Shown: piece after piece, positions 33,083 through 44,228 of the stretch
Position numbering within the stretch: the stretch's first letter is position 1
How the letters are laid out: every line of letters starts with the position of its first letter
Notes under the pieces: generated by a model
Seen by the model: the letters and a program-made list of their open reading frames with translations, nothing else
Databases searched by the model: none
What the model was told of the DNA's origin: nothing
Assembly (NCBI GenBank): GCA_036500405.1
Contig: DASYCD010000256.1
Coordinates: 5,816-69,815, forward strand
Length of the DNA stretch: 64,000 nucleotides
DNA from: Bryobacteraceae bacterium
Lineage (GTDB): Bacteria; Acidobacteriota; Terriglobia; Bryobacterales; Bryobacteraceae
Direction: 5' to 3'
Position numbers and translations under genes: made by a program

Positions 33083-33204
33083 GACAGAATTTCTCCAGGG
33101 GGCGCGCAGGAAACCGACGGGCCATGTTCGAAAAAGGACGTGAGATGACTGTGTAGCTCCTGCAGCTTGAGTTTCCGGACAGATCCCCACTGGGCTAGTA
33201 CTCT

Positions 33205-33219
33205 GCAATGCTTGTGCCA
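33205..33219 (-). promoter_or_regulatory. Sigma-54 (-24/-12) promoter of the polysaccharide operon
   Basis: The minus strand reads C-TGGCAC-AAGCA-TTGC-A, an exact match to TGGCAC-N5-TTGC. It lies about 120 nt upstream of the wza start, in an intergenic region. Confidence 0.65.
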
Positions 33220-33384: not shown

Positions 33385-34602
33385 GTGGAAGGCGTGTTGC
33401 ATGTATTCGTACGTGCGAAGGGGGCAACAGCAGATCTGAGCGAATCTGAGCAGGGCCAGCGGGAGCGAAACAGTGCGAGAACATTCACAACGGCGAAGAA
33501 GCCGTTCGGCGCCGCGATACTCGCGCTCACCAAACACGAGAGAAAATTACTCGCCGCCTGGCAGAAGCAATTGCAGGGGCCTCGCGAACTGCGGGGCGCC
33601 TTTGGCGCTCACACGGAAATTGCGCTCTGGAACGCCGCCCGAAAACTACCGAAGGTCGGCTATCCGGAATTTTCTTCCAAACTTGCCGAAGTGGGCGACG
33701 ATCTTGCGCGCCGCGAAGTTCCTCCGGAAGAAATTGTCGCGGTGATCACTAATCTGCAAAATGCCGCGCTCACCTGCCTGGCGCGAGATGAGCAGGTGGA
33801 AGCAATTGCGCTTCTGCGAATCAGTTCGCTCGCGTCCAGTATTCTGGTCGCCGGATATGCCAGGCACTGGCAGAAGCGCGCTGACAGCATGGAAGCCAGG
33901 CTGCGCGACGCGGAAGAACGGATGCTCGGTACGTCTTCTTACGTTACCGGGGTTTATGAACGTGAGCGGCGACGACTCTCGCACGATCTTCATGATGAAA
34001 TCGGACACGAACTCGTTGTGCTGAAGCTAAGGCTGGAACTGATTGCGGCGGACGTCAGTCTGAGCAAGTTCGCCCTGCTCACGCCGAGGCTGAACGACGC
34101 GCTGGAATTGGTCGGGCGGGCAATCGACTCGGTGCGGCGGCTCGTGATGGATCTGGGACCCGCCGTCTTTGACGACCTCGGATTTCTGCCCGCCATTCGT
34201 CTGTACGGAAGACAGTTCAGCGCGAGCACCGGCATTGATGTGACGATTCGAGAGGGCGATATGCCGGCTGAGATTCCGCTTTCGCACCAGACCGCGCTTT
34301 ATCGCGTGATGCAGGGAGCGCTTTCCAACACTTTGCGCCACGGAAAGGCGAAGCATGTGACCGTGGCATTCGCCTGTTTGAAAAATTCTCAATTAATGAT
34401 GACGATTGAAGATGACGGAGTAGGTTTCGATACAACCGCGGTGCGCGTCAAGCAGCGATTCGGCCTGACGGCCATGCGGGAGCGCATCGCGGTGCTGGGC
34501 GGGAAGGTTCATGTGCAGTCCTGGCCCGCAAGTCCGCTGGGTGGCCGCCGAGGCACTCGAATTGAAGTCGATTTACCGCTGGCCGGAGGGAACCCACGAT
34601 GA
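33385..34602 (+). CDS. Cytoplasmic sensor histidine kinase, HisKA_3 (NarX/DegS) type
   Basis: RRRLSHDLHDEIGHEL is the H-box. The C-terminal HATPase has ALSNTLRHGKA, EDDGVGF and FGLTAMRER. The start codon is uncertain (no internal ATG for 170 aa). Confidence 0.8.
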   Translation: MEGVLHVFVRAKGATADLSESEQGQRERNSARTFTTAKKPFGAAILALTKHERKLLAAWQKQLQGPRELRGAFGAHTEIALWNAARKLPKVGYPEFSSKLAEVGDDLARREVPPEEIVAVITNLQNAALTCLARDEQVEAIALLRISSLASSILVAGYARHWQKRADSMEARLRDAEERMLGTSSYVTGVYERERRRLSHDLHDEIGHELVVLKLRLELIAADVSLSKFALLTPRLNDALELVGRAIDSVRRLVMDLGPAVFDDLGFLPAIRLYGRQFSASTGIDVTIREGDMPAEIPLSHQTALYRVMQGALSNTLRHGKAKHVTVAFACLKNSQLMMTIEDDGVGFDTTAVRVKQRFGLTAMRERIAVLGGKVHVQSWPASPLGGRRGTRIEVDLPLAGGNPR

Positions 34603-35249
34603 ATAAGCTGCGTGTACTCGTTTGTGACGACCATTCGCTCTTCCGGGAAGGAGTGAAGTCGATTTTGACGGCGCAGCCGGATATCGAAGTCGTGGGCGAA
34701 GCCGTCGACGGGCTCCAGGCTGTGGAGCTAGCGAAAACTTTGCGGCCGGACGTGGTCCTTATGGACATTTCCATGCCGCTGCTCAAAGGCTTTGACGCCA
34801 CGCGGCGCATTCACCGGATGCTGCCCGATTTGAAAATTCTGGTGCTCACGATTCACGACGATGAGGACCTGGTGGCGCGCTGCCTCATGGAAGGCGCCGC
34901 CGGCTACATTCTCAAGGACGCGCCGCCTTCACAACTTGTTTATGCCACTCAGGCGGTGGGGCGCGGAGAGCGTTATCTGAGCCCGCGTGTGCTCGGCAGC
35001 GTGGTCAACGCTTATAAAGGAACCACAGAGCGCGCGGGCCAGACGAAATACGATCTATTGAGCGATCGCGAACGTGAAATTCTGGTATTACTCGCGGGTG
35101 GCGACGCGTTGAAGGAAATTGCGCAGCGCCTGAACCTCAGCGTGAAGACAGTCGACGCGCACAAAGCCAACCTCATGCGCAAGCTCGAGCTGCATGATCG
35201 CTCGGAACTGATCCGTTACGCGATTCGCAACAAATTGGTGGAGCCTTGA
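34599..35249 (+). CDS. NarL/LuxR-family response regulator
   Basis: The receiver part is LVCDDH...VVLMDISMP and the C-terminal LuxR HTH is LSDREREILVLLAGGDALKEIAQRLNLSVKTVDAHKANLMRKL. There is an ATGA overlap with the kinase gene. Confidence 0.9.
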   Translation: MNKLRVLVCDDHSLFREGVKSILTAQPDIEVVGEAVDGLQAVELAKTLRPDVVLMDISMPLLKGFDATRRIHRMLPDLKILVLTIHDDEDLVARCLMEGAAGYILKDAPPSQLVYATQAVGRGERYLSPRVLGSVVNAYKGTTERAGQTKYDLLSDREREILVLLAGGDALKEIAQRLNLSVKTVDAHKANLMRKLELHDRSELIRYAIRNKLVEP

Positions 35250-35294: not shown

Positions 35295-36719
35295 TCAGCC
35301 TGCAGCGCTGCTGCTGCTCGCGCCTGCGCCAATCTGCCACCGCTTGATCTTATTCAGCAGCGCCTTGTAGCTGATGGACAACTTCTTCGCGGCCAGCTTG
35401 CGATTCCAGTTGACCTCATTCAGAGTGCGCAGCACAACCTCCCGCTCCACGCGTTCCGCCGCGAGCGAGGAAAGCTTCTTGAGGGAAGAAGTATCTTTCG
35501 GCAACTCGGCGACAGGCGAACTCTCCGAGGACGAAGCCGCCGCGGCGCGCGCAACGGGAACCTCGGCATGAGCTTCGGGCTCGACCAGATCGCCCAACAC
35601 AAGCTTGACATCGGGCAGAATGACGAAGCGCTTGATGATGTTTTCGAGTTGACGCACGTTGCCCGGCCATGAGTAATGTTCAATGGCGTCCATGAGATCC
35701 GGTGGAATTTCACGCGCCGGTCGTTTGTACCGGCTTGAGTAGAGATTGATCAAAAACGTGCACAGGGGGGCAATATCTTCCCTCCGATCACGAAGCGGCG
35801 GAATCTCAATCCGGATGACGTTCAGGCGGTAATAAAGATCTTCGCGGAAAGTTCCCTCAGCAACGCACTCTTCAAGACGCTGATTTGTCGCGGCGACTAC
35901 ACGGGCACCGGAGCACTGCGGCTTGGTCCCACCCAACCGCGTAAACTCTCCATCCTGAAGTACATGCAGGAGTTTCGCCTGAAGCAACGGGCTCATTTCC
36001 CCGATTTCATCAAGGAAGATGGTGCCCCGTCCGGCGAGTTCAAACTTGCCGGGTTTATCGCGCAGGGCGCCGGTGAAAGCGCCACGCTCATAGCCAAACA
36101 GTTCCGATTCAAGGAGTTCGGAGGGTAACGCAGCGCAATTCACCTTCAACAGCTGCTCATTGCGGCGAGCAGAAGAGTAGTGAATATGGCGGGCCATCAC
36201 TTCTTTTCCGACTCCCGATTCCCCCAGAATCAGGACCGGCACATCGGTATCGGCAACCTGCGCCGCCAATTCCCGCATCTGCATCATTTGCGGATTGCAC
36301 GAAATCACTTCGCGTGCGGGCGTTCCTGTCGGCGCTGGAGCGCCGCCCTGGCTCTCATCGAGAGCACTTTGAACAGCACGCTCTAAGTCTTCGTCGGCAA
36401 AAGGTTTAACAAGGTAGTCGCTGGCGCCCAGTCGCATCGCTTTCACGACCATGTTTACCTGTCCCATGCCGGACAAAACGATTGTCGGGACGGCGCGCCG
36501 GGAGCGCGCCATTTCTTCCAGAACATCAATGCCGCCGACGCGGGGCATCATGAGATCGAGAATCAGAACATTTGGCTGGCTGGCAGCGCGGAGCCGCGCA
36601 ATTGCGCGCTCGCCGGAAACCGCAGTTTCCACATCATAGCCACGCTGCGTGAGAAAGGCGCCGAGTGACGAACGAAACGACTCGTCGTCATCGACTACAA
36701 GGACACTGGGTTTGGTCAC
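35295..36719 (-). CDS. NtrC-type sigma-54-dependent transcriptional activator (REC, AAA+, Fis HTH)
   Basis: The receiver is VLVVDDDESF...LILDLMMP, Walker A is GESGVGKE and the GAFTGA loop is YERGAFTGA. A C-terminal Fis-type HTH is present. The GTG start 36719 overlaps the upstream stop (GTGA). Confidence 0.9.
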   Translation of the reverse strand: MTKPSVLVVDDDESFRSSLGAFLTQRGYDVETAVSGERAIARLRAASQPNVLILDLMMPRVGGIDVLEEMARSRRAVPTIVLSGMGQVNMVVKAMRLGASDYLVKPFADEDLERAVQSALDESQGGAPAPTGTPAREVISCNPQMMQMRELAAQVADTDVPVLILGESGVGKEVMARHIHYSSARRNEQLLKVNCAALPSELLESELFGYERGAFTGALRDKPGKFELAGRGTIFLDEIGEMSPLLQAKLLHVLQDGEFTRLGGTKPQCSGARVVAATNQRLEECVAEGTFREDLYYRLNVIRIEIPPLRDRREDIAPLCTFLINLYSSRYKRPAREIPPDLMDAIEHYSWPGNVRQLENIIKRFVILPDVKLVLGDLVEPEAHAEVPVARAAAASSSESSPVAELPKDTSSLKKLSSLAAERVEREVVLRTLNEVNWNRKLAAKKLSISYKALLNKIKRWQIGAGASSSSAAG

Positions 36720-37348
36720 GCATCTATACCAGCATGCTGCAGACCAACTGCAATCTCGCCTAAACGATTGATGTTTCGAAGCGCGGCGGAAAGATATTCC
36801 GGACTCCCCACGCAAGCAGTTCGCGCATCATCGAGCGCCATACGCGTAAATCCACGAGCCGCCATAAGGGGATCCGCGAGCTCGCCCGCAATGGTGATCA
36901 TCGTCTGCATGGCTTCGTCCCGCTCCCGCAAACCCGCAAGAACGACAGCCGCAGGCTCGCAGATTTTGCGGAGAGCACGTATTGTTGAGCCATCCACGGG
37001 GCGCTCGGCGGCGAGAGCCAGAATTCCTTCCAGGCGGCCGGATGATGCGATCGGGATCAAAACACGTCCGGCGAACGAGACATCGTCGCCTCGCTCCAAT
37101 GCGGGAAGCGTTGCCGGATGCTCCGCGATCCAGCTATGGAAATCGCCCTCCCAGAGCCGACGTTCGCCTTCCCATCCGCAGGCGGAAACAAAGCGGGGAG
37201 CTGACGCGTCCCAGCAAAAAGCTACAGCGTCGCCGGCGTCGAAAATCGGCCGCGCGGAAGCACACAAAAGCGTGAGAAGAGCGCGAACTGAAGGCGACGG
37301 TTCGCGGCCCGACATTTTTACCTGCGTGCTTCCGATGGCAACCTCCAT
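36716..37348 (-). CDS. GAF-like domain protein with degenerate HisKA/DHp-like tail (no phospho-acceptor His, no ATPase domain)
   Basis: The N-terminal 140 aa are GAF-like (RLEGILALAAERP). The tail IAGELADPLMAARGFTRMAL...YLSAALRNINRLGEI mirrors the HisKA motif sHELRTPL, but with Gly in place of His. Confidence 0.5.
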   Translation of the reverse strand: MEVAIGSTQVKMSGREPSPSVRALLTLLCASARPIFDAGDAVAFCWDASAPRFVSACGWEGERRLWEGDFHSWIAEHPATLPALERGDDVSFAGRVLIPIASSGRLEGILALAAERPVDGSTIRALRKICEPAAVVLAGLRERDEAMQTMITIAGELADPLMAARGFTRMALDDARTACVGSPEYLSAALRNINRLGEIAVGLQHAGIDA

Positions 37349-37517
37349 ACGACCCCTGTGTGCGTTCCTGGTGAGTCAACATAACTCACTTCCGGCGAGG
37401 GTTCTTTTAGCCATATCGTAGCTAATCGCACGATTCATGGCACTGAGAAAACACCTAAACTCCCAGGATAAAATCCCCTGGTCACCTGCTTGCTGCGCAT
37501 AAGCAGACCTTGCTTGA

Positions 37518-37874
37518 ATGCGAGTACCCATTCTTAAACAGGGCGACTATCTGATCGCCTCCATACAATCCGCTCTTTCCGATGAGGATTTGATTCAGCT
37601 GCGGGATGACCTCGCGGCTCGGGTTGGAAAGTATCGTTCCAAAGGCGTTATCGTCGACGTGACCGTTCTCGACGTCATGGATTCCTTCGCTACCCGCACA
37701 TTGCGCGACCTTGCCCAGTCCGTTCGTCTACGCGGGGCACAGACCGTAATCGTGGGGATTCAGCCGGAGGTGGCGTTCGCCATGGTGCAGTTGGGTCTCG
37801 AACTGGGAAATGTTCATACAGCGCTCGATCTTGAAGAAGGCCTGGAGCTGATGACGGCGGGCCTGCCTGCCTGA
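37518..37874 (+). CDS. rsbS: STAS-domain stressosome scaffold protein RsbS
   Basis: This 118-aa single STAS domain starts VPILKQGDYLIASIQ and contains VIVDVTVLDVMDSFATR, with the conserved DS phospho-serine position. Confidence 0.8.
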   Translation: MRVPILKQGDYLIASIQSALSDEDLIQLRDDLAARVGKYRSKGVIVDVTVLDVMDSFATRTLRDLAQSVRLRGAQTVIVGIQPEVAFAMVQLGLELGNVHTALDLEEGLELMTAGLPA

Positions 37875-37883
37875 GGATCGCCG

Positions 37884-38285
37884 GTGGCGGTGGAAACCAG
37901 GCATCTGCCAATTCGGTCGGATAGTGACGTGGTGGAAGCGCGTATGGCTTCACGCACGCTGGCGGGGCGCGTCGGTTTTTCGGGCACAGATCAGGTGCTC
38001 ATTGCGACCGCTGTCTCCGAGATCGCGCGCAATATCGTTGAATACGCGCGCGGTGGCGAGGTGTTGATCTCGGCGCTTGAAGGAAGGCGAAAGGGTTTGG
38101 AAATCATTTTTCTGGATGAAGGGCCGGGCATCGCGGACGTCAGCCGGGCCATGGAGACCGGCTTCACCACCGCGCGTGGCTTGGGGATGGGTCTGCCGGG
38201 CGCCAAACGTCTGATGGACGAGTTCGATATTGCGTCGCGCGTGGGGCGCGGCACCGCAATCAAAATGAGGAAGTGGGTCGGATGA
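37884..38285 (+). CDS. rsbT: RsbT-type serine kinase / switch protein
   Basis: This is a 133-aa GHKL kinase-only protein with an N-box (EIARNIVEYA), G1 (DEGPGI) and G2 (GLGMGLPGAKR). It has a GTG start. Confidence 0.8.
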   Translation: MAVETRHLPIRSDSDVVEARMASRTLAGRVGFSGTDQVLIATAVSEIARNIVEYARGGEVLISALEGRRKGLEIIFLDEGPGIADVSRAMETGFTTARGLGMGLPGAKRLMDEFDIASRVGRGTAIKMRKWVG

Positions 38286-38908
38286 CGCGCTCATTCCGCA
38301 AACAGCGCTCGCTGATCGAGTGGAGTTTCTCGTCGGTACGGCCGCCGGGCGAATCGGAATCGGGCGACATGGCTCTCGTCAGGCCGGTAACCAACGGCGT
38401 GCTTCTGGCCGCGGTGGATGGCGCCGGACACGGTCATGAGGCGGCGAGTGCGGCGCAGATTGCCGTGACGACTCTGAAGGAACACGCTGGCGAAGGAATC
38501 GCCGCGCTGCTGCGGCGGTGCCACCTGAAACTCAGAGGGACGCGCGGCGCCGTCATGAGTCTGATTTCGTTCGACGGCGAACGTAATGAGATGAAGTGGC
38601 TCGGCGTCGGAAACATCTCCGGGCTGCTCGTGCGCCGGCGCGATCATCCGGGCGCAACTCAGGAAGGGATTCTGCTGAGAGGCGGTTTGCTGGGATACGC
38701 GCTGCCACGCCTGCAGCCCCAAATCGTCGCGATACTGCCAGGCGACACGGTCGCGCTGGCGACGGACGGAATCCATCCGGATTTCGTCAAAGATATGGAT
38801 GCCGACACGCCGCCCGGGACTCTCGCCGCCCGGCTCTGTTCGCGATACGCCACCGGGCGCGACGACGGCATGATGCTGGTGGCGCGATATCTGGGGTGGA
38901 ATACGTGA
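38282..38908 (+). CDS. rsbX: PP2C/SpoIIE-family phosphatase (RsbX-like)
   Basis: LAAVDGAGHGHEAASAA and ALATDGIHPDF are the metal-binding Asp motifs of small RsbX-type PP2C proteins. There is an ATGA overlap with rsbT. Confidence 0.65.
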   Translation: MTRSFRKQRSLIEWSFSSVRPPGESESGDMALVRPVTNGVLLAAVDGAGHGHEAASAAQIAVTTLKEHAGEGIAALLRRCHLKLRGTRGAVMSLISFDGERNEMKWLGVGNISGLLVRRRDHPGATQEGILLRGGLLGYALPRLQPQIVAILPGDTVALATDGIHPDFVKDMDADTPPGTLAARLCSRYATGRDDGMMLVARYLGWNT

Positions 38909-38996
38909 CCCGAAGGACGAAACAGTACGTAGATGGACCGTCGCGTGCATTCTGTGCGATACGGCGGGAGTGCGCGCTGGTGGAGGAACGAAGCTG

Positions 38997-39902
38997 ATGG
39001 CGATCAAAGATCGAGTCCGCAAGGACGCCGTAATGAAGTTGCCTGTGGCGGGCGAGTCCACCAAAGATCTGCTGACAGAGCTCGTTGCCCACCTGCGCCA
39101 GAACCGGACTCAGTTGCGTGAGGAGTGGGCGCGCCGCATTACCGAATCCCGCCTGCTGATGGCGATGACGCGGGAAGAAATTTTCGTGGAAGCCACAGCG
39201 GTTTACGACAACTATGTCGCGGTGCTCGAAACCGGCAGCGTGGAGGCTCTCCAGGAATACGCGCGCGATCTTTCTGAACGCATTATCCCGCGGGGCGTCG
39301 AAACCCATGAAGTGCTGGGAATCGTGCTGCTGCTGCGCGACGTTCTGGCGCGCTCTCTGTTCAAAAAGTACCAGGCCAATTTCGCCATGCTGAACCGCGT
39401 GCTGGATGCTTATGAGCCCGCCGCCAACCGCATTGCGAACACGGTGGGCGTCAGCTTCGTCCAGGAGCGCGAACGCATCATCCGCGAGCAGCAGGAAGCG
39501 ATCCGGGAACTCTCCACGCCGGTGCTCCAGGTACGTGAGCGTCTGCTCATTCTTCCCATCATTGGTGTAATCGATCCCCAACGAGCCCGGCAACTTACTG
39601 AGCAGTTACTGCGCGGTATCCGGGGAAACCGCGCGAAAGTGGTGGTGATCGATATTACGGGGGTCCCCTCGGTAGATTCCGGGGTGGCAAATCATCTGGT
39701 CCAGACCGTAGATGCCTCGCGGCTTATGGGCGCTACAGTTATTGTTACCGGCCTGTCATCGGAAATTGCGCAAACCCTTGTTACGATCGGCGTGGATCTG
39801 ACTAAAATGAAGACGGTCGGCGACTTACAGGGTGGAATTGAAGAGGCGGAACGGTTGCTGGGATATCAGATTGTTAGTCCCGCGTCATCGGCGGGCAGCT
39901 AA
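38997..39902 (+). CDS. rsbR: RsbR-type stressosome sensor protein (N-terminal globin-like sensor domain plus C-terminal STAS)
   Basis: The C-terminal sequence LSTPVLQVRERLLILPIIGVIDPQRARQL...VVIDITGVPSVDSGVANHL...VIVTGL is classic RsbR STAS. The start ATG 38997 is preceded by GGAGGA. Confidence 0.8.
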   Translation: MAIKDRVRKDAVMKLPVAGESTKDLLTELVAHLRQNRTQLREEWARRITESRLLMAMTREEIFVEATAVYDNYVAVLETGSVEALQEYARDLSERIIPRGVETHEVLGIVLLLRDVLARSLFKKYQANFAMLNRVLDAYEPAANRIANTVGVSFVQERERIIREQQEAIRELSTPVLQVRERLLILPIIGVIDPQRARQLTEQLLRGIRGNRAKVVVIDITGVPSVDSGVANHLVQTVDASRLMGATVIVTGLSSEIAQTLVTIGVDLTKMKTVGDLQGGIEEAERLLGYQIVSPASSAGS

Positions 39903-40066
39903 CGAAGATAACTGCCGGATCGTAGTGGATCAGGCAGTACAGAACATTTCCTGGCTGTGAATAATGCCGGTTGATCGCGGGCCGTTTTCCATTAACATAT
40001 AGTCATCTGAGCCACCGCTTAGCCAAGGTGTGCTTCGATACCAGTCACATTCCGGGAGGTTTTTCC

Positions 40067-41128
40067 ATGTCGCGACAGGTAAATGTGACATCGAACCAGG
40101 GTTCCCCCTTGCTTACCAATGATCTCCGGAGACTCGACGCAACGTTTTCCGACGCGGCGAGCCAGGGGAAACGCTGGGCGATCGTGCTCGCGGGCGGCGA
40201 TGGAAAGCGTCTGTTGCAGATGACGCGCGTTGTTGCCGGCGATGACCGTCCGAAACAATTTTGCGCGCTGGTGGACGCTGACACGCTACTGGAGAAAACG
40301 CGCAAACGCGCCGAGCGCAGTGTTGCGCCCGAACGCACGCTTTTTGCTCTGACGCGCGGACACAGCCGCTTCTATCTGAAGGAATCCGGCATTCGGGCCT
40401 CGCAGCGAATTGTGCAGCCCTGCAATAAGGGCACGGCGGCGCCAATTGTTTATGGATTAATGAGCATCGAGAAGCAGGATCGCGATGCGGTAGTGGCCGT
40501 CTTGCCGAGCGATCATCACTACTCCGACGAGGCGGCGTTCACGCGAGCGCTGAATTCGGCATTCGATGCGGCACAGCGTTATACGGGATCGGTCATTCTG
40601 ATGGGGGGGCATGCGCGGGGCGCCGAAACGGAATACGGGTGGATCGAACGGGGGGACGCGGTTGGCGGCGGAGCAAGCACGGCCTGGCGCGTCCGGAGCT
40701 TCCACGAAAAGCCGCCGGCGCCCGTCGCGCAGCGCTTGTTCGAAGAGGGCGCACTGTGGAACACATTCGTAATGGTAGGCCGCGTTCGCGATTTTATCGA
40801 TCTGGTGGGAGCAGCGCGCACCGGTCTGCTGAAAGCGTTCCCTCAGGAACATCTGTGGAACGGCTCGGAGGTTCACCTGGAAGAGTGGGTCTACAGCCGC
40901 ATCTATAACATCGATTTTTCGCGCGAGGTCCTTTCGAGCCAGACAGACCGGCTTCTGACGTTACCTTTGGAAGTCGGCTGGAACGATCTGGGACATCCGG
41001 AGCGCGTGCTCGACGTACTGCAGTCGACCGGGATGGAGCCGTGGTGGATGAAGGAATGGCAGGCTATGAAGCGGCCGGCGGCCCGCGCCGCGGCAACTGC
41101 CGGAGCGAGCGAAGCCGCCGTCGCGTGA
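40067..41128 (+). CDS. Mannose-1-phosphate guanylyltransferase-like sugar nucleotidyltransferase
   Basis: WAIVLAGGDGKRL...DRPKQF is the nucleotidyltransferase signature. The start was trimmed to ATG 40067, which has GGAGG 7 nt upstream. Confidence 0.75.
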   Translation: MSRQVNVTSNQGSPLLTNDLRRLDATFSDAASQGKRWAIVLAGGDGKRLLQMTRVVAGDDRPKQFCALVDADTLLEKTRKRAERSVAPERTLFALTRGHSRFYLKESGIRASQRIVQPCNKGTAAPIVYGLMSIEKQDRDAVVAVLPSDHHYSDEAAFTRALNSAFDAAQRYTGSVILMGGHARGAETEYGWIERGDAVGGGASTAWRVRSFHEKPPAPVAQRLFEEGALWNTFVMVGRVRDFIDLVGAARTGLLKAFPQEHLWNGSEVHLEEWVYSRIYNIDFSREVLSSQTDRLLTLPLEVGWNDLGHPERVLDVLQSTGMEPWWMKEWQAMKRPAARAAATAGASEAAVA

Positions 41129-41135
41129 TTTTCCT

Positions 41136-41435
41136 CTAAACTACGCTGGCGGTAGCGCGCGCCAGTTCTTCCGGATCATTCGCATGCTGGCTCTCGCGCA
41201 GCTTTCGCACGAGCGCGGCGATCGACCGTACGGAACGAAGGTCGTCAATTTCCAGATCCGCCAGTTCGATCCGGATATCGAAGGTCTGCTCGAGGTGCAT
41301 GATCAACTGCACGAGCGTGACTGAATCGAGCACGCCCTCCGCGAGCAGGTCCGTATCGTCACTCGCCACTTCCACGGCGAGTTTATCCGCGATCAACCGC
41401 CGAACGACGCCGGCGAGATTCAACACCGCACTCAC
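41136..41435 (-). CDS. Acyl/peptidyl carrier protein
   Basis: This 99-aa protein has LLAEGVLDSVTLVQLI (DS phosphopantetheine attachment motif). Its start overlaps the stop of the adenylation gene. Confidence 0.8.
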   Translation of the reverse strand: MSAVLNLAGVVRRLIADKLAVEVASDDTDLLAEGVLDSVTLVQLIMHLEQTFDIRIELADLEIDDLRSVRSIAALVRKLRESQHANDPEELARATASVV

Positions 41436-43087
41436 TGAAATGCCTCCTGGGTGGCCGTTGCGCTGCGCGTCCCGAGAGGGCGCGGCATGGGCGATTCCGC
41501 ATTAGCGGCGAGTTCAAGGAACTTCTCTTTCAGACAACGCCGGTCTGTCTTGCCGTTACCGTTGAGCGGCATGCGATCGAGCGGCATCCACTGCGCGGGA
41601 ATCATATAGCTGGGGAGCAGCTTCGAAAGACTGCGCCGCAGGGCCGCGGGACTCTCTTCCCCGCCCGGCGCCGGCACCCATGCGCAGCAAATCGTGGTAC
41701 CTTCGAAAGCCGAGCAGTCGATCGCCACCACAGCCGCCGTCTGAATTCCCGGAAGCGAATGCAGCGCCGCTTCGATTTCGCCGAGCTCGATTCGATAACC
41801 GCGGCTCTTGATCTGCGAATCGGAACGGCCGAGCAGACAGAGATCTCCGTTTTTCGTCCACCGGGCCAGATCGCCTGTGCGATAGATGCGTCCTTCCGGT
41901 CCAGGCGTGGCGGGATCCTGCACAAAGACTTCTGCCGTACGCGCCGGATCACGCCAGTATCCCGGACTCAGACCGGCTCCGCCAATATACAGATCGCCAG
42001 CCTCCTCCGGTTTGACCGGCTGCAGCTTTTCATCCAGCACCAGAAGCCGTTCACCCGCGCAGGGTTCGCCAATTGGCGTTTCGGCGGTTTCATCCGAAGG
42101 GCATGCCGGTACTTTGTAAAAGCTGCTCGCGATCGTCGCCTCCGTGGGGCCATAGAGGTTGTAGAATCCGATGCCCGGCAAGCGGCTCATCCAGTAGATG
42201 AGGCCGGGCGTGGGAAATTTCTCGCCGCACCAAAGCAGCCGTTTGAGAGATGGGAAATCATTCTGGCGCACTGCGTCCGATTTCGCCATGTGGGTGAGAA
42301 TCGACGGCACCGAAAACCACTGCGTCAGCTTCGCATCGCGGATGAAACTTGCCAGGCGGGCCGGCAACAGGTTCAGTTCGGGCGGAACAAGATGCAGTTC
42401 GGCGCCGACGCGAACGGTTCCATGAATGTCGAAAGTGGAAAGATCGAAATGAAAGGGCGGATGCGCGGAAACGCGATCGCTCGATTCCATGCCGAAATAC
42501 GGCACGGCCCAATCGAGAAACTGCAGCGCGTTCGAGTGCGTAATCATCACGCCTTTGGGCGCCCCGGTGGTGCCGGAAGTAAACAGCAGGTGCGCGATGT
42601 CTTCGTCCGTTGTGGAGGATGGAAGAGGCGCCGAAGAGAGCGACTGCACCTCCGGCCAGGAGAAAGCAGCGCGGTCATCGTCCGGGCTTTCCGTAACAGG
42701 ATCCATCCAGCCCACTTTGGCTGAACCGCGTAACAGATCCGTCAAGAGGGGTCCCGCGGAATGCATGGCCAGTACGCAGCGGCAATCTGCCGCTTCGAGG
42801 ATGCGCGCAAGCCGGGCGGCGGGCGAGGACGTATCCAGCGGAACGTAGATGCAATCCGCCTTGAGCGCGCCGAACATGCCGATCAGAATTTCAAGCGACT
42901 TCGGAAGGAACAGACCGACGCGGTCCCCTTTCACGCAACCAGCGTTCCGCAACGCGCGCGCCACGCGATTGGAAGCCTGCTCCCATTCCGCATAACTCAT
43001 CCGCTGATTTTTAAAGACGACAGCAGTTTTCTCGGGGTGATTTTCCGCCGACTTCGTCAGAGCGTCCTGCAATCTCCGCCTCACCAA
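41432..43087 (-). CDS. Stand-alone adenylation enzyme (ANL superfamily, DltA/NRPS A-domain-like)
   Basis: LFTSGTTGAPKGV (A3), YGPTE (A5), YRTGDLARW (A8) and GRSDSQIKSRGYRIELGEIE (A8-A10) core motifs are present. Confidence 0.85.
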   Translation of the reverse strand: MVRRRLQDALTKSAENHPEKTAVVFKNQRMSYAEWEQASNRVARALRNAGCVKGDRVGLFLPKSLEILIGMFGALKADCIYVPLDTSSPAARLARILEAADCRCVLAMHSAGPLLTDLLRGSAKVGWMDPVTESPDDDRAAFSWPEVQSLSSAPLPSSTTDEDIAHLLFTSGTTGAPKGVMITHSNALQFLDWAVPYFGMESSDRVSAHPPFHFDLSTFDIHGTVRVGAELHLVPPELNLLPARLASFIRDAKLTQWFSVPSILTHMAKSDAVRQNDFPSLKRLLWCGEKFPTPGLIYWMSRLPGIGFYNLYGPTEATIASSFYKVPACPSDETAETPIGEPCAGERLLVLDEKLQPVKPEEAGDLYIGGAGLSPGYWRDPARTAEVFVQDPATPGPEGRIYRTGDLARWTKNGDLCLLGRSDSQIKSRGYRIELGEIEAALHSLPGIQTAAVVAIDCSAFEGTTICCAWVPAPGGEESPAALRRSLSKLLPSYMIPAQWMPLDRMPLNGNGKTDRRCLKEKFLELAANAESPMPRPLGTRSATATQEAFQ

Positions 43088-44184
43088 GTGACCTCGCGGG
43101 CAGCCATCCGGAACGCGGTTCGCATGTGCTCGAATTCCTCTTCGAGAGCGGGAATATCCAGAATGAAGGTGTCGTATCCGGCCAGGAGATAACCCGATAG
43201 CGCCCGCGCCACCGACTCATAATTCCCGACGAGATACGGACAGAACGTCTTGTAGTTTTCGTAAGGACCGAGCCAGTATGGGTTGCGGCCTGTCGCACTC
43301 GCCGACGTTTCCTGCGGGTTCGATTTACCAAGCTCAGCCAGACGCTGGTGCCAGACAGAATCCGAAACCTTGAGGGCGAGCTTATGCGTGATCTGTCCCT
43401 GCCGATCGTCCGGGAATCGATCGAGCGCGACGCGCCACGCTTCCTCTTCATCGGACCGCGCAATAATGCCGATGCGAAGACCGTGGCCTCCGAGCGGCTT
43501 GCCGTCCGATGGTTTGCTTTCCGATAATGACGCGTAGTGCTCCGGCGGTTCAGGATACTGCACGGGAATAGCGCCAATGGCGCGGGCTGAATTCAAACCG
43601 GCGGGTGAGGAACCCGACATCAGTACCTGCGGCATCAACTCGGCCGGCAATGCAGGCTGGAGAGTCAGATTGCGAACCTGATAAAAGCGCCCTTCGAATG
43701 TGGATGGCGAAGGGTGGCGAAGCAGATCGAGCATGACCTTCGCATATTCCGCGAGGCGTTCGTAACGCGCGTCATGCGGAGTGGGGTCATTGAGGGCAAT
43801 CAGATCGTTGCGGAATCCACCGGCGACAAGGTTAAGATCCACACGCCGCTCATGCAGCGCCGAGAGCGAACTGACCATTTTTGCCGCGCTGAACGGATGC
43901 ATGTAGATGGGCTGCAGCGCCACAAGTGGGCTTAAATGGAACGTGTTCCCGATAACAAGTTGCGCGATCAGCCATGGATCGACCATTTGGTTATCGGTGT
44001 AAATCAGCATCCCCTCGCAGCCTGCGTCCTCACTCCACTGCGCCGCGCGAGTTACCGATTTTTTGTATCTTCTGAAGTCTTTTTGCCCGTAGCTCGGCGG
44101 ACAGGTCGAATAAACTTTGGCGCCCGGGCAAAGAATATCCCGGCCTGAAGCGGCGGGCCGCGGGGCCGCCAGCGTTTCCACCAT
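43081..44184 (-). CDS. Luciferase-like (LLM class) flavin-dependent oxidoreductase
   Basis: GCEGMLIYTDN...DPWLIAQ...MVSSLSALHERRVDLNLVAGG is LLM-like. The start was trimmed to ATG 44184, which has AGGAGGA 6 nt upstream. Confidence 0.75.
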   Translation of the reverse strand: MVETLAAPRPAASGRDILCPGAKVYSTCPPSYGQKDFRRYKKSVTRAAQWSEDAGCEGMLIYTDNQMVDPWLIAQLVIGNTFHLSPLVALQPIYMHPFSAAKMVSSLSALHERRVDLNLVAGGFRNDLIALNDPTPHDARYERLAEYAKVMLDLLRHPSPSTFEGRFYQVRNLTLQPALPAELMPQVLMSGSSPAGLNSARAIGAIPVQYPEPPEHYASLSESKPSDGKPLGGHGLRIGIIARSDEEEAWRVALDRFPDDRQGQITHKLALKVSDSVWHQRLAELGKSNPQETSASATGRNPYWLGPYENYKTFCPYLVGNYESVARALSGYLLAGYDTFILDIPALEEEFEHMRTAFRMAAREVTW

Positions 44185-44212
44185 CTGCGATCCTCCTACT
44201 TCACCCGGACGC

Positions 44213-44228
44213 AGCACGATCAGTGCCA
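44213..44228 (-). promoter_or_regulatory. Candidate sigma-54 promoter of the LLM / adenylation / carrier-protein operon
   Basis: The minus strand reads TGGCAC-TGATC-GTGC-T, with a perfect -24 element and conserved -12 GC spacing. It lies about 30 nt upstream of the SD-supported ATG 44184. Confidence 0.45.

What the first reader, a model, noticed from the sequence alone, without database searches (positions are those of the whole stretch)
37349..39938. A stressosome module has non-canonical gene order and no sigma-B partner-switching output, divergent from the sigma-54 activator operon
The four genes are rsbS (single STAS with the DS phospho-site), rsbT (kinase-only GHKL), a small RsbX-like PP2C and rsbR (sensor domain plus STAS). 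They are packed with 9-nt, overlapping and 88-nt junctions in the order S-T-X-R. The Bacillus paradigm is R-S-T...X. I see no RsbU, RsbV, RsbW or sigma-B homologue, and no protein with an RsbU-like N-domain to receive RsbT. The only regulators nearby are the divergently transcribed GAF/NtrC pair 170 bp away and the polysaccharide operon they may control. An imperfect hairpin at 39911-39938 may end the unit. The output of this stressosome is therefore open, and a link to sigma-54-dependent polysaccharide synthesis is a testable idea.
Basis: partly seen in the sequence, partly recalled or inferred. Interest (0 to 1): 0.6.

Follow-up and report, generated by a model that had tools for sequence, protein, structure and literature searches.

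The report
Stressosome operon that lost its output kinase
This soil acidobacterium carries an intact four-gene stress-sensing "stressosome" cassette in an unusual gene order; related genomes indicate that the kinase gene which normally receives its signal was deleted, yet the cassette is still under selection and sits behind a sigma-54-type promoter next to a sigma-54 activator.

Summary
Window 37518-39902 encodes RsbS, RsbT, an RsbX-type PP2C and RsbR, in that order, with 9-nt, overlapping and 88-nt junctions.

The order is a lineage-specific variant of a widespread cassette:
- 67 of 80 related loci are canonical R-S-T-X, and the next gene usually starts with the RsbT-docking domain RsbU_N.
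- In a Bryobacterales clade the order is S-T-X-[RsbU_N hybrid histidine kinase]-R.
- The window and its close relatives lack that kinase gene, and no RsbU_N domain or sigma-B/F/G sigma factor is found anywhere in the genome.

Where the kinase is gone, the neighbouring small DHp protein (U210) has also lost its phospho-acceptor His (G/S/T/R/A), in at least two independent lineages. S, T, X and R remain under strong purifying selection (dN/dS 0.01-0.14).

A conserved sigma-54-type -24/-12 element lies 39 nt upstream of rsbS. Similar elements precede the adjacent globin-coupled kinase/NarL pair, the wza polysaccharide operon and the LLM operon. All four surround one NtrC-type activator.

SigB-less stressosomes with two-component outputs are already known. 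The current target of RsbT remains open. New variant of a known kind.

The parts
37518..37874 (+). rsbS: single-STAS scaffold protein (118 aa) with the MDS Ser55 phospho-site
   Evidence: Pfam STAS. Listeria RsbS match, E 5.5e-26. 88-99% identical in the S-first clade, dN/dS 0.01-0.02.
37884..38285 (+). rsbT: stand-alone GHKL Ser/Thr kinase (133 aa)
   Evidence: HATPase_c_2. Homologues are named RsbT. It always lies between rsbS and rsbX in related loci. dN/dS 0.03-0.05.
38273..38908 (+). rsbX-type PP2C feedback phosphatase (211 aa; likely ATG at 38282, ATGA overlap with the rsbT stop)
   Evidence: SpoIIE/PP2C. Matches Moorella MtX 3zt9 and B. subtilis RsbX 3w40. Metal-binding motifs are present. 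dN/dS 0.10-0.14.
38997..39902 (+). rsbR: N-terminal RsbR-type sensor domain plus STAS (301 aa)
   Evidence: Full-length match to Listeria RsbR, E 2.6e-34. 80-94% identical across several phyla. dN/dS 0.01-0.02.
37479..37494 (+). sigma-54-type -24/-12 element (TGG-N8-TTGCT) 39 nt upstream of the rsbS ATG
   Evidence: Found by pattern search. Conserved at -39/-40 in 8 close relatives; variants occur in L154/L044, L155, L078 and L156/L166. Not found upstream of rsbR in canonical loci: 1 of 70, with a background of 0.017 per 340 nt.
39911..39938 (+). stem-loop just after the rsbR stop; possible end of the transcription unit
   Evidence: dG -16 kcal/mol, z -5.25. No U tract, and missed by the terminator scan. 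Several relatives have a stem-loop of different sequence at the same place, followed by a conserved block before the next gene.
36716..37348 (-). U210: small protein with a GAF-like N-terminal part and a DHp (HisKA-like) helix whose phospho-acceptor His is Gly
   Evidence: Weak GAF_2/HisKA hits. The H-box alignment shows His only in loci that keep the RsbU_N hybrid kinase. dN/dS 0.15-0.20.
35295..36815 (-). NtrC-type sigma-54 activator (REC + AAA+ with GAFTGA + HTH_8); the real start is probably the GTG at 36719
   Evidence: Pfam/NCBIfam. REC phospho-chemistry residues and GAFTGA are intact in all relatives. Divergent neighbour of rsbS in nearly all S-first loci.
33385..34602 (+). HK405: globin-coupled HisKA_3 histidine kinase; the real start lies downstream of the promoter element at 33386-33401
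   Evidence: HisKA_3 + HATPase_c. N-domain AF2 model has pLDDT 90 and matches sensor globins: AfGcHK 5ohf and Geobacter 2w31, TM 0.62-0.71. No similarity to RsbU_N.
34599..35249 (+). NarL/LuxR-type response regulator paired with HK405
   Evidence: Response_reg + GerE. Present with HK405 next to the module in the window clade and in L074-L079 and L085.
33386..33401 (+). sigma-54-type element in front of HK405
   Evidence: Found. Conserved in L073, L154, L155, L159, L163 and L167.
33204..33219 (-). consensus sigma-54 promoter of the wza polysaccharide-export operon
   Evidence: Found. Conserved in relatives.
40068..41128 (+). NTP_transferase (mannose-1-phosphate guanylyltransferase-like) gene downstream of the module, with its own conserved upstream block
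   Evidence: Pfam/NCBIfam. Conserved downstream of rsbR in the window clade. Upstream block seen.

Best explanation
What it is. This is a genuine, intact RsbS-RsbT-RsbX-RsbR stressosome module of the widespread RSTX type, the same family as the Mycobacterium module.

How the gene order arose. In a Bryobacterales lineage rsbR came to lie at the 3' end, giving S-T-X-[RsbU_N-PAS-GAF-HisKA-HATPase-REC hybrid kinase]-R. In the window's clade the hybrid kinase gene was then lost, which leaves S-T-X-R.

Ancestral signalling (inferred). RsbT released from the RsbR/RsbS core docked on the RsbU_N domain of the hybrid kinase. Phosphate then passed through the small His-bearing DHp protein to the divergently encoded NtrC-type activator. 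That activator drives sigma-54 promoters in front of rsbS, the globin-kinase/NarL pair, the wza polysaccharide operon and the LLM/adenylation operon.

State in this genome. The relay is cut at two points: there is no RsbU_N protein anywhere, and the DHp His is Gly. The four stressosome genes are still under purifying selection and probably still sigma-54/NtrC-dependent for transcription. RsbR/RsbS therefore still sequester and are phosphorylated by RsbT, RsbX resets them, and RsbT must act on a target without RsbU_N. The likeliest targets are the neighbours that stay linked in every kinase-less locus: the globin-coupled HisKA_3 kinase/NarL pair, or the His-less DHp protein/NtrC pair.

Shown versus inferred. 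Shown: gene identities, gene order, loss of the kinase, the His/kinase co-variation, selection, and the promoter elements. Inferred: the direction of phosphate flow and the present target of RsbT.
For: Identities.

Canonical order elsewhere:
- 67 of 80 loci are R-S-T-X.
- 41 of 54 ORFs found directly after rsbX start with RsbU_N.

S-first relatives:
- L075, L076 and L156 carry an 836-842-aa RsbU_N hybrid kinase between rsbX and rsbR. L074 has a matching hybrid-kinase hit in the same position.
- The window, L073, L154, L159, L160, L163, L167, L077 and L085 lack it. G021 (L044) is syntenic but its locus is too short to show the rsbX-rsbR gap.

Loss rather than gain:
- The outgroups have the kinase, and the S+T+R tree requires at least 2-3 independent losses.
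- The genome has no RsbU_N by Pfam or by a clade HMM that scores 75-140 bits on acidobacterial relatives, and no hybrid-kinase orthologue.
- G021 and three other genomes with S-T-X-R architecture also lack RsbU_N, while L075's genome has exactly one.

His co-variation:
- His is kept in L156/L157, L074 and L075, which keep the kinase, and in L166, a close homologue of L156 whose contig is too short to show the kinase.
- It is G/S/T/R/A in the loci shown to lack the kinase, and also in G021 (L044) and in the truncated contigs L162 and L165.
- L078 and L079 lack the HisKA gene altogether.

Selection: dN/dS is S 0.01-0.02, T 0.03-0.05, X 0.10-0.14 and R 0.01-0.02 at dS 0.4-1.5.

Sigma-54 elements are conserved upstream of rsbS, HK405, wza and LLM. 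rpoN is present. The NtrC REC residues and GAFTGA are intact.
Against:
- The relaxed -24/-12 pattern is not over-represented in the window as a whole (3 found, 3.9 expected). Its weight rests on position, orientation and conservation.
- The His/kinase co-variation rests on few independent events, and the L155-L156 sister node has 90% support while the next node has 69%.
- The phosphotransferase role of the DHp protein is inferred. In L074/L075 the His protein is a different, short HisKA protein.
- HK405 has a sensor-globin N-domain, not a docking domain, so it may be an independent sensor.
- Relatives that have also lost rsbX (L155, L078, L079), or both rsbT and rsbX (L080), suggest ongoing reduction of the module.
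- The assembly has 541 contigs and 6% contamination.
Confidence: 0.7

Rival explanations
1. RsbT signals directly to the divergent GAF-like/DHp protein and NtrC, for example by binding the His-less DHp protein and releasing or activating NtrC. This would switch on sigma-54-dependent polysaccharide genes.
For: NtrC is the divergent neighbour of rsbS in nearly all S-first loci. U210 remains under purifying selection after losing its His (dN/dS 0.15-0.20), so it keeps some function. Sigma-54 elements surround NtrC. RsbT is a GHKL domain of the kind that normally docks on DHp helices (established knowledge of histidine kinases).
Against: No interaction data exist and complex prediction was not possible with these tools. 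L077 and L085 keep S-T-X-R without an adjacent NtrC/DHp pair. The His loss tracks loss of the hybrid kinase, which points to the kinase, not RsbT, as the former partner of the DHp protein.
Confidence: 0.25
2. The output is the adjacent globin-coupled HisKA_3 kinase and NarL-type regulator (33385-35249). RsbT would modulate or phosphorylate this kinase without an RsbU_N domain, as has been proposed for the Vibrio vulnificus stressosome and its downstream two-component system.
For: The HK405/NarL pair is next to the module in every kinase-less locus, and those loci derive from at least two independent losses. In L077 and L085 the pair directly follows rsbR. In Terriglobia the module is followed by an RsbU_N-HisKA_3 kinase plus a NarL regulator of the same kinase family. 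There is a precedent for outputs lacking RsbU_N (PMC9237108).
Against: The N-domain is a sensor-globin fold with no similarity to RsbU_N, so the kinase can sense on its own. The pair is absent within 10 kb in L156. Here it is separated from the module by the divergent NtrC operon.
Confidence: 0.25
3. The module is a remnant in reductive evolution. After loss of the output kinase, RsbT and RsbX have no downstream role, and only RsbR/RsbS are retained for some other function.
For: Relatives show stepwise loss: S-T-R without rsbX in L155, L078 and L079, and S-R only in L080. RsbR and RsbS are far more conserved than RsbT and RsbX.
Against: In the window clade rsbT and rsbX have intact catalytic motifs and low dN/dS (0.03-0.14) at dS up to 1.5. 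No frameshifts or stops are seen.
Confidence: 0.12
4. RsbT acts at a distance on a partner-switching set elsewhere in the genome: the RsbW/RsbV-like pair on contig C249 and one of six large PP2C phosphatases.
For: A 144-aa HATPase_c_2 protein and a 114-aa STAS protein are adjacent on C249. Six SpoIIE-type phosphatases have GAF, FHA, PAS or MHYT N-termini, and one has an unannotated 280-aa N-terminus.
Against: None of the phosphatases has RsbU_N. There is no sigma factor next to the C249 pair and no SigB/F/G-class sigma over the family cut-off. There is no synteny with the module.
Confidence: 0.08

Closest known systems
RsbR-RsbS-RsbT-RsbX 'upstream module' with variable downstream modules (Pane-Farre 2005/2017 as cited in PMC10014275; Heinz et al. 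2022, PMC9237108)
   Same: The same four proteins are present. RsbX is encoded with the core. There is no sigma-B. The module is associated with two-component genes. Cases in which the downstream protein lacks RsbU_N are already described.
   Different: rsbR is last instead of first. The docking kinase seen in sister lineages has been lost. A sigma-54-type promoter precedes the operon, with a divergent NtrC-type activator.
Mycobacterium marinum / slow-growing mycobacterial stressosome (RsbR, S, T, X, RsbUW; PMC8115616)
   Same: RsbR is about 83-85% identical to mycobacterial RsbR genes found here (L108, L109 and others). The RsbS/T/X families are the same.
   Different: The mycobacterial loci are R-S-T-X followed by RsbU_N-PAS-PP2C-HATPase_c_2, which feeds a SigF partner switch. 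The window has neither that protein nor a SigB/F-class sigma.
RsbU_N-fused histidine kinases and diguanylate cyclases controlled by RsbT (Moorella MtG; proteobacterial NreB-like kinases; PMC12143880)
   Same: Sister loci (L156, L075, L094) encode RsbU_N fused to histidine kinases directly after rsbX. This is the published RsbT-docking architecture.
   Different: In the window this partner is absent from the whole genome.
Bacillus subtilis / Listeria sigma-B stressosome (RsbRA-RsbS-RsbT-RsbU-RsbV-RsbW-SigB-RsbX)
   Same: RsbS and RsbR match the Listeria cryo-EM chains over their full length. The kinase and phosphatase families are the same.
   Different: There is no RsbU or SigB. There are no RsbR paralogues; each gene is single-copy. 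rsbX is adjacent to rsbT, and the gene order differs.
Globin-coupled histidine kinase AfGcHK (Anaeromyxobacter) and other globin-coupled sensors (for HK405)
   Same: The predicted N-domain fold matches 5ohf, 2w31 and HemAT (TM 0.6-0.7) and is fused to a kinase core.
   Different: The kinase core is HisKA_3/NarL-type. No His is invariant in the N-domain across homologues, so haem binding is doubtful.

Membership tests
Stressosome RSTX module | RsbS: single-STAS protein of about 120 aa with the conserved phosphorylatable Ser | tested here: met
   STAS domain. Listeria and Moorella RsbS chains match at E 1e-23 to 1e-26. The 'MDS' Ser55 is read from the sequence.
Stressosome RSTX module | RsbR: N-terminal sensor domain plus C-terminal STAS | tested here: met
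   Residues 31-294 align to Listeria RsbR 7-275, E 2.6e-34. Pfam gives RsbRD_N (weak) + STAS.
Stressosome RSTX module | RsbT: stand-alone GHKL Ser/Thr kinase encoded next to rsbS | tested here: met
   HATPase_c_2, 133 aa. Homologues are named RsbT. It lies between rsbS and rsbX in about 70 related loci. No RsbT chain matched in the PDB search, so the closest solved structure is SpoIIAB.
Stressosome RSTX module | RsbX: small PP2C feedback phosphatase | tested here: met
   Matches MtX 3zt9 and RsbX 3w40. Metal-binding motifs are present.
Stressosome RSTX module | Assembly into an RsbR/RsbS core that sequesters RsbT; RsbT kinase activity | not testable with these tools
   Needs biochemistry or cryo-EM.
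Stressosome RSTX module | Downstream effector carrying the RsbT-docking RsbU_N domain | tested here: not met
   No RsbU_N in the genome by Pfam or by the clade HMM on six-frame ORFs. No orthologue of the hybrid kinase. Published modules without RsbU_N exist (PMC9237108), so this feature is not strictly defining.
Sigma-B partner-switching cascade (RsbU/RsbV/RsbW/SigB) | RsbU phosphatase with an RsbU_N domain, plus an RsbV/RsbW pair and a SigB/F/G-class sigma factor | tested here: not met
   No RsbU_N. The best sigma hit scores 130 bits against a cut-off of 234. An RsbW/RsbV-like pair exists on C249 but has no adjacent sigma gene.
Sigma-54 / bEBP regulon | GG-N10-GC -24/-12 promoter upstream of the operon, an activator with an AAA+ GAFTGA loop, and rpoN in the genome | tested here: met
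   The element at 37479-37494 is conserved in relatives. NtrC has Sigma54_activat and GAFTGA. rpoN lies on C495. Promoter use itself was not tested.
His-Asp phosphorelay (hybrid kinase -> His phosphotransferase -> response regulator) | Hybrid kinase with a receiver domain, an intermediate with a phospho-acceptor His, and a terminal receiver | tested here: not met
   In the window the hybrid kinase is absent and the DHp His is Gly. All three parts are present in sister loci L156 and L075.
Globin-coupled sensor kinases (HK405) | Sensor-globin fold with a proximal haem-binding His, fused to a kinase | tested here: inconclusive
   The fold matches, but no His is invariant in the N-domain.

The most novel reading that the evidence does not exclude
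After losing its RsbU_N docking kinase, this lineage re-targeted RsbT to a partner without RsbU_N. The most interesting candidate is the His-less DHp pseudo-kinase that is coupled to the NtrC activator. The stressosome would then gate a sigma-54 activator by protein-protein partner switching, while the same activator drives the stressosome operon from a sigma-54 promoter, forming a feedback loop that controls exopolysaccharide genes.
Probability: 0.15. Interest if true: 0.7.

Novelty: new variant of a known kind. Interest (0 to 1): 0.5.

Why it matters
How stressosomes signal outside Firmicutes, and how RsbT acts when no RsbU_N domain is present, is an open question that the Vibrio work states explicitly.

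This clade offers a natural series of states:
- module with the docking hybrid kinase;
- module without it;
- module without RsbX;
- RsbS-RsbR only.

A co-varying change (loss of the acceptor His) sits in a neighbouring protein, and the remaining genes stay under strong selection. The series gives concrete, testable candidates for the RsbT target. It also ties a stressosome to sigma-54-dependent transcription and exopolysaccharide genes in abundant soil Acidobacteria.

Tried and rejected
- HK405 N-domain as a divergent RsbU_N or RsbR_N: profile comparisons gave probabilities below 1%. The fold search showed a sensor globin instead. A fold search with the full-length model returned only kinase cores.
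- Deletion scar of the hybrid kinase in the 88-nt rsbX-rsbR spacer: local alignments to L156, L075 and L074 scored within the shuffle range.
- Exact look-up of the window's RsbT in public contigs: not on record.
- Sigma-54 element upstream of rsbR in canonical loci: 1 of 70, which is background.
- Intrinsic terminator after rsbR: the scan did not report the hairpin, and terminator-like sites in the region are at chance level.
- Order-level survey with RsbT (200 genomes): 18 further genomes had only paralogue-level hits (at most 51% identity), so it gave no extra orthologous loci.
- U210 relatives are scarce: 4 loci in species genomes and 6 in metagenome contigs.
- Complex prediction (RsbT with candidate partners): not possible, because the structure tool folds single chains only.
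Full report
OBSERVATION

Four same-strand ORFs lie at 37518-37874, 37884-38285, 38273-38908 and 38997-39902. Their Pfam assignments are STAS; HATPase_c_2; SpoIIE/PP2C; and RsbRD_N (weak) plus STAS.

Matches against solved structures:
- The first protein matches Listeria RsbS (E 5.5e-26).
- The last matches full-length Listeria RsbR (residues 31-294, E 2.6e-34).
- The phosphatase matches Moorella MtX and B. subtilis RsbX.
- The kinase matches only SpoIIAB. However, its thousands of database homologues are labelled RsbT where named, and they sit between rsbS and rsbX in related loci.

The junctions are 9 nt, an overlap (an ATGA overlap if the ATG at 38282 is used), and 88 nt. The hairpin at 39911-39938 is stable (dG -16 kcal/mol, z -5.25) but has no U tract and is not called by the terminator scan.

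WHERE THE GENE ORDER COMES FROM

RsbR relatives were fetched from one genome per species, and all neighbours were mapped by tblastn.
- 67 of 80 loci are canonical R-S-T-X. They come from Terriglobia, Vicinamibacteria, Gemmatimonadales, Nitrospirota, FCPU426, Solirubrobacteraceae, Mycobacterium, Nocardia and others.
- Four Nocardia loci show RsbR only.
- Nine loci, all Bryobacterales/Solibacteraceae-type MAGs, put rsbS first.

In the canonical loci the gene directly after rsbX almost always begins with the RsbT-docking domain RsbU_N: 41 of 54 next ORFs match a seed HMM. The domain is fused to different effectors:
- a roughly 315-aa HisKA_3 kinase followed by a NarL regulator, in Terriglobia;
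- a roughly 830-aa hybrid kinase;
- in Mycobacterium, PAS-PP2C-HATPase_c_2.

In the S-first clade, L075, L076 and L156 carry an 836-842-aa protein between rsbX and rsbR. Its architecture is RsbU_N-PAS-GAF-HisKA-HATPase_c-REC. L074 has a matching hybrid-kinase hit in the same position.

The window lacks this gene. So do the following loci:
- L073, L159, L160, L163 and L167 (RsbT 93-97% identical);
- L154 (82%);
- L077 and L085 (61%).

G021, the only genus-mate with an RsbT orthologue (L044, 82%), is syntenic, but its locus is too short to show the rsbX-rsbR gap.

Further reduction is seen in some relatives. L155, L078 and L079 also lack rsbX. L080 keeps only rsbS and rsbR.

A maximum-likelihood tree of RsbS+RsbT+RsbR recovers the S-first clade with 100% support. 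It places kinase-bearing loci as sisters of kinase-less ones: L156 with L155 (90%), and L074/L075 with L077/L085/L078/L079. Since all outgroups have an RsbU_N effector, the kinase was lost at least two or three times.

IS THE DOCKING PARTNER REALLY ABSENT?

- The Pfam RsbU_N model finds nothing in the 5.87-Mb assembly (100% marker completeness, 541 contigs, 6% contamination).
- A clade-specific HMM scores 75-140 bits on acidobacterial examples but finds nothing better than E 0.4 in all six-frame ORFs.
- tblastn with the L156 hybrid kinase finds only generic kinase cores at about 30% identity. Its first 130 residues give no hit.
- G021 and three other genomes with S-T-X-R architecture also lack RsbU_N, while the genome of L075 has exactly one copy, the one inside the module.
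- No sigma factor reaches the SigB/F/G cut-off.
- An RsbW/RsbV-like pair exists on contig C249, and there are six large PP2C phosphatases. None has RsbU_N, and the pair has no neighbouring sigma gene.

A CO-VARYING CHANGE NEXT DOOR

The divergent 210-aa gene (36716-37348) has a DHp-type helix in which the H-box His is Gly.

Its orthologues retain His in L156/L157, which keep the hybrid kinase, and in L166, a close homologue of L156 whose contig is too short to show the kinase. L074 and L075 encode a different short HisKA protein, also with His.

In the loci shown to lack the kinase, the position is variable while the flanking motif stays conserved:
- Gly in the window;
- Ser in L073, L159, L160 and L167;
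- Thr in L163 and L164;
- Arg in L154;
- Ala in L155.

It is also Arg in L044 (G021), Gly in L162 and Arg in L165, three loci too short to show the kinase status.

L078 and L079 have no such gene between NtrC and rsbS. On the tree these are at least two independent co-losses.

The simplest reading is a phosphorelay: hybrid kinase -> DHp His -> NtrC receiver. This is an inference. The NtrC receiver keeps all its phospho-chemistry residues and the GAFTGA loop in every lineage, so it is presumably still phosphorylated by some kinase.

IS THE MODULE DECAYING?

Pairwise Nei-Gojobori estimates were made against five relatives at dS 0.4-1.5. dN/dS values are:
- RsbS 0.01-0.02
- RsbT 0.03-0.05
- RsbX 0.10-0.14
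- RsbR 0.01-0.02
- the DHp protein 0.15-0.20
- NtrC 0.06-0.10

Catalytic motifs of RsbT and RsbX are intact. The module is therefore maintained in this clade, although the rsbX-less and rsbT-less relatives show that reduction does occur.

SIGMA-54 CONTEXT

A TGG-N8-TTGC(A/T) element lies at 37479-37494, 39 nt upstream of the rsbS ATG. It is conserved at that position in eight close relatives. Variants occur in L154/L044, L155, L078 and L156/L166, even though the surrounding sequence has diverged.

The same pattern occurs only three times in the window, all promoter-proximal and correctly oriented: at wza (33204-33219, minus strand), at HK405 (33386-33401, plus strand) and at rsbS. The count itself is at chance level (3.9 expected). 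The HK405 and wza elements are conserved as a divergent pair in six relatives. A fourth element precedes the LLM/adenylation/carrier operon.

rpoN is present. Canonical R-first loci have no such element upstream of rsbR (1 of 70, background).

The single NtrC-type activator in the middle of this island thus probably drives the stressosome operon, the kinase/NarL pair, the polysaccharide operon and the LLM operon. This supports a sigma-54 link, but at the level of transcription of the module. In the ancestor it would have closed a feedback loop.

ORF 33385-34602 is a HisKA_3/HATPase_c kinase, and 34599-35249 is a NarL-type regulator. The kinase's 160-aa N-domain has no sequence similarity to RsbU_N or RsbR_N. 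It folds with pLDDT 90 into a sensor-globin fold, matching AfGcHK 5ohf, Geobacter 2w31 and HemAT at TM 0.6-0.7. No His is conserved in it.

The pair accompanies the module in every kinase-less locus and follows rsbR directly in L077 and L085. It is the other plausible present-day output, but it may equally be an independent sensor. Its ORF start at 33385 overlaps the promoter element, so the true start lies further downstream.

COMPARISON WITH THE LITERATURE

- RSTX 'upstream modules' without SigB, and with two-component or c-di-GMP 'downstream modules', are established (PMC10014275).
- RsbU_N-fused kinases and cyclases are described as RsbT targets (PMC12143880).
- Mycobacterial rsbR-S-T-X-UW genes were reported as acquired during the evolution of the genus (PMC8115616). 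This fits the roughly 83-85% RsbR identity seen here between Acidobacteria and Mycobacterium.

Four things I did not find in these papers:
- the S-first permutation with rsbR after the effector;
- recurrent loss of the effector, with a co-varying His loss in a neighbour;
- a sigma-54 promoter on a stressosome operon;
- the extreme cross-phylum conservation of this RsbR.

VERDICT

This is a new variant of a known kind. The evolutionary reconstruction is well supported, but the present target of RsbT is unresolved. I give the NtrC/DHp route and the globin-kinase/NarL route about 0.25 each, the remnant model about 0.12, and distant partner-switching about 0.08.

Noticed in passing
window 38997-39902; loci L073-L152: RsbR is extraordinarily conserved: 80-94% identity over about 280 residues, N-terminal sensor domain included. 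This holds across Acidobacteriota, Actinomycetota (Mycobacterium, Nocardia, Solirubrobacteraceae), Gemmatimonadales, Nitrospirota, Latescibacterota and FCPU426. In the same operons RsbS is 62-90% identical, RsbT 46-65% and RsbX 33-51%. This is the opposite of the Bacillus picture of variable RsbR N-domains and suggests a universal ligand or partner.
   Followed up: partly
L168 (G019:C4:6000-16000), also G001, G003, G005, G009, G012, G013, G015, G016, G020, G021, G023: Other members of the same genus carry a different stressosome-like cluster. It consists of RsbRD_N-STAS, a STAS protein, an RsbT-like kinase, an RsbT-like domain fused to PP2C (338 aa), and an RsbT-like domain fused to a HisKA-HATPase-REC hybrid kinase (600 aa). 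This is a fusion that links RsbT-type domains directly to a hybrid kinase. It is absent from the window's genome.
   Followed up: partly
window 33385-33401: The first codons of the longest HK405 ORF (GTG GAA GGC GTG TTG CA) are themselves the sigma-54-type -24/-12 element. The annotated start is therefore probably wrong, and the real start lies downstream.
   Followed up: partly
window 39940-40067: A block conserved among relatives lies between the rsbR hairpin and the NTP_transferase gene. It includes TTGATC, a 17-nt spacer and TAACAT, and looks like that gene's own sigma-70-type promoter.
   Followed up: no
window 37380-37480: A block upstream of the rsbS -24 element is conserved in relatives (GTAACTAATCGCACGATT ... 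GAGAAAACACCTAAACTCC ... GATAAAATCCCC). The window lacks about 30 nt that its relatives have between this block and the -24 element. It is a candidate activator or IHF binding region.
   Followed up: no
L094 6553-7662(-), 12110-12517(+), 12687-13976(+): In Terriglobia the canonical R-S-T-X-[RsbU_N kinase]-NarL locus is also flanked by sigma-54 activators. One lacks a receiver domain and is divergent from rsbR. Another lies downstream after a stand-alone receiver protein. Stressosome/sigma-54-activator neighbourhood therefore extends beyond the S-first clade.
   Followed up: partly
L129, L138, L141, L147 (Nocardia): RsbR orthologues (about 85% identical) have no detectable rsbS, rsbT or rsbX within 8 kb.
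   Followed up: no
window 41136-44228 and L154-L156: The luciferase-like monooxygenase / adenylation enzyme / carrier protein triad and the carbamoyltransferase stay linked to the stressosome locus even in L156, where the polysaccharide operon and HK405/NarL are not nearby. The triad keeps a sigma-54-type element.
   Followed up: partly
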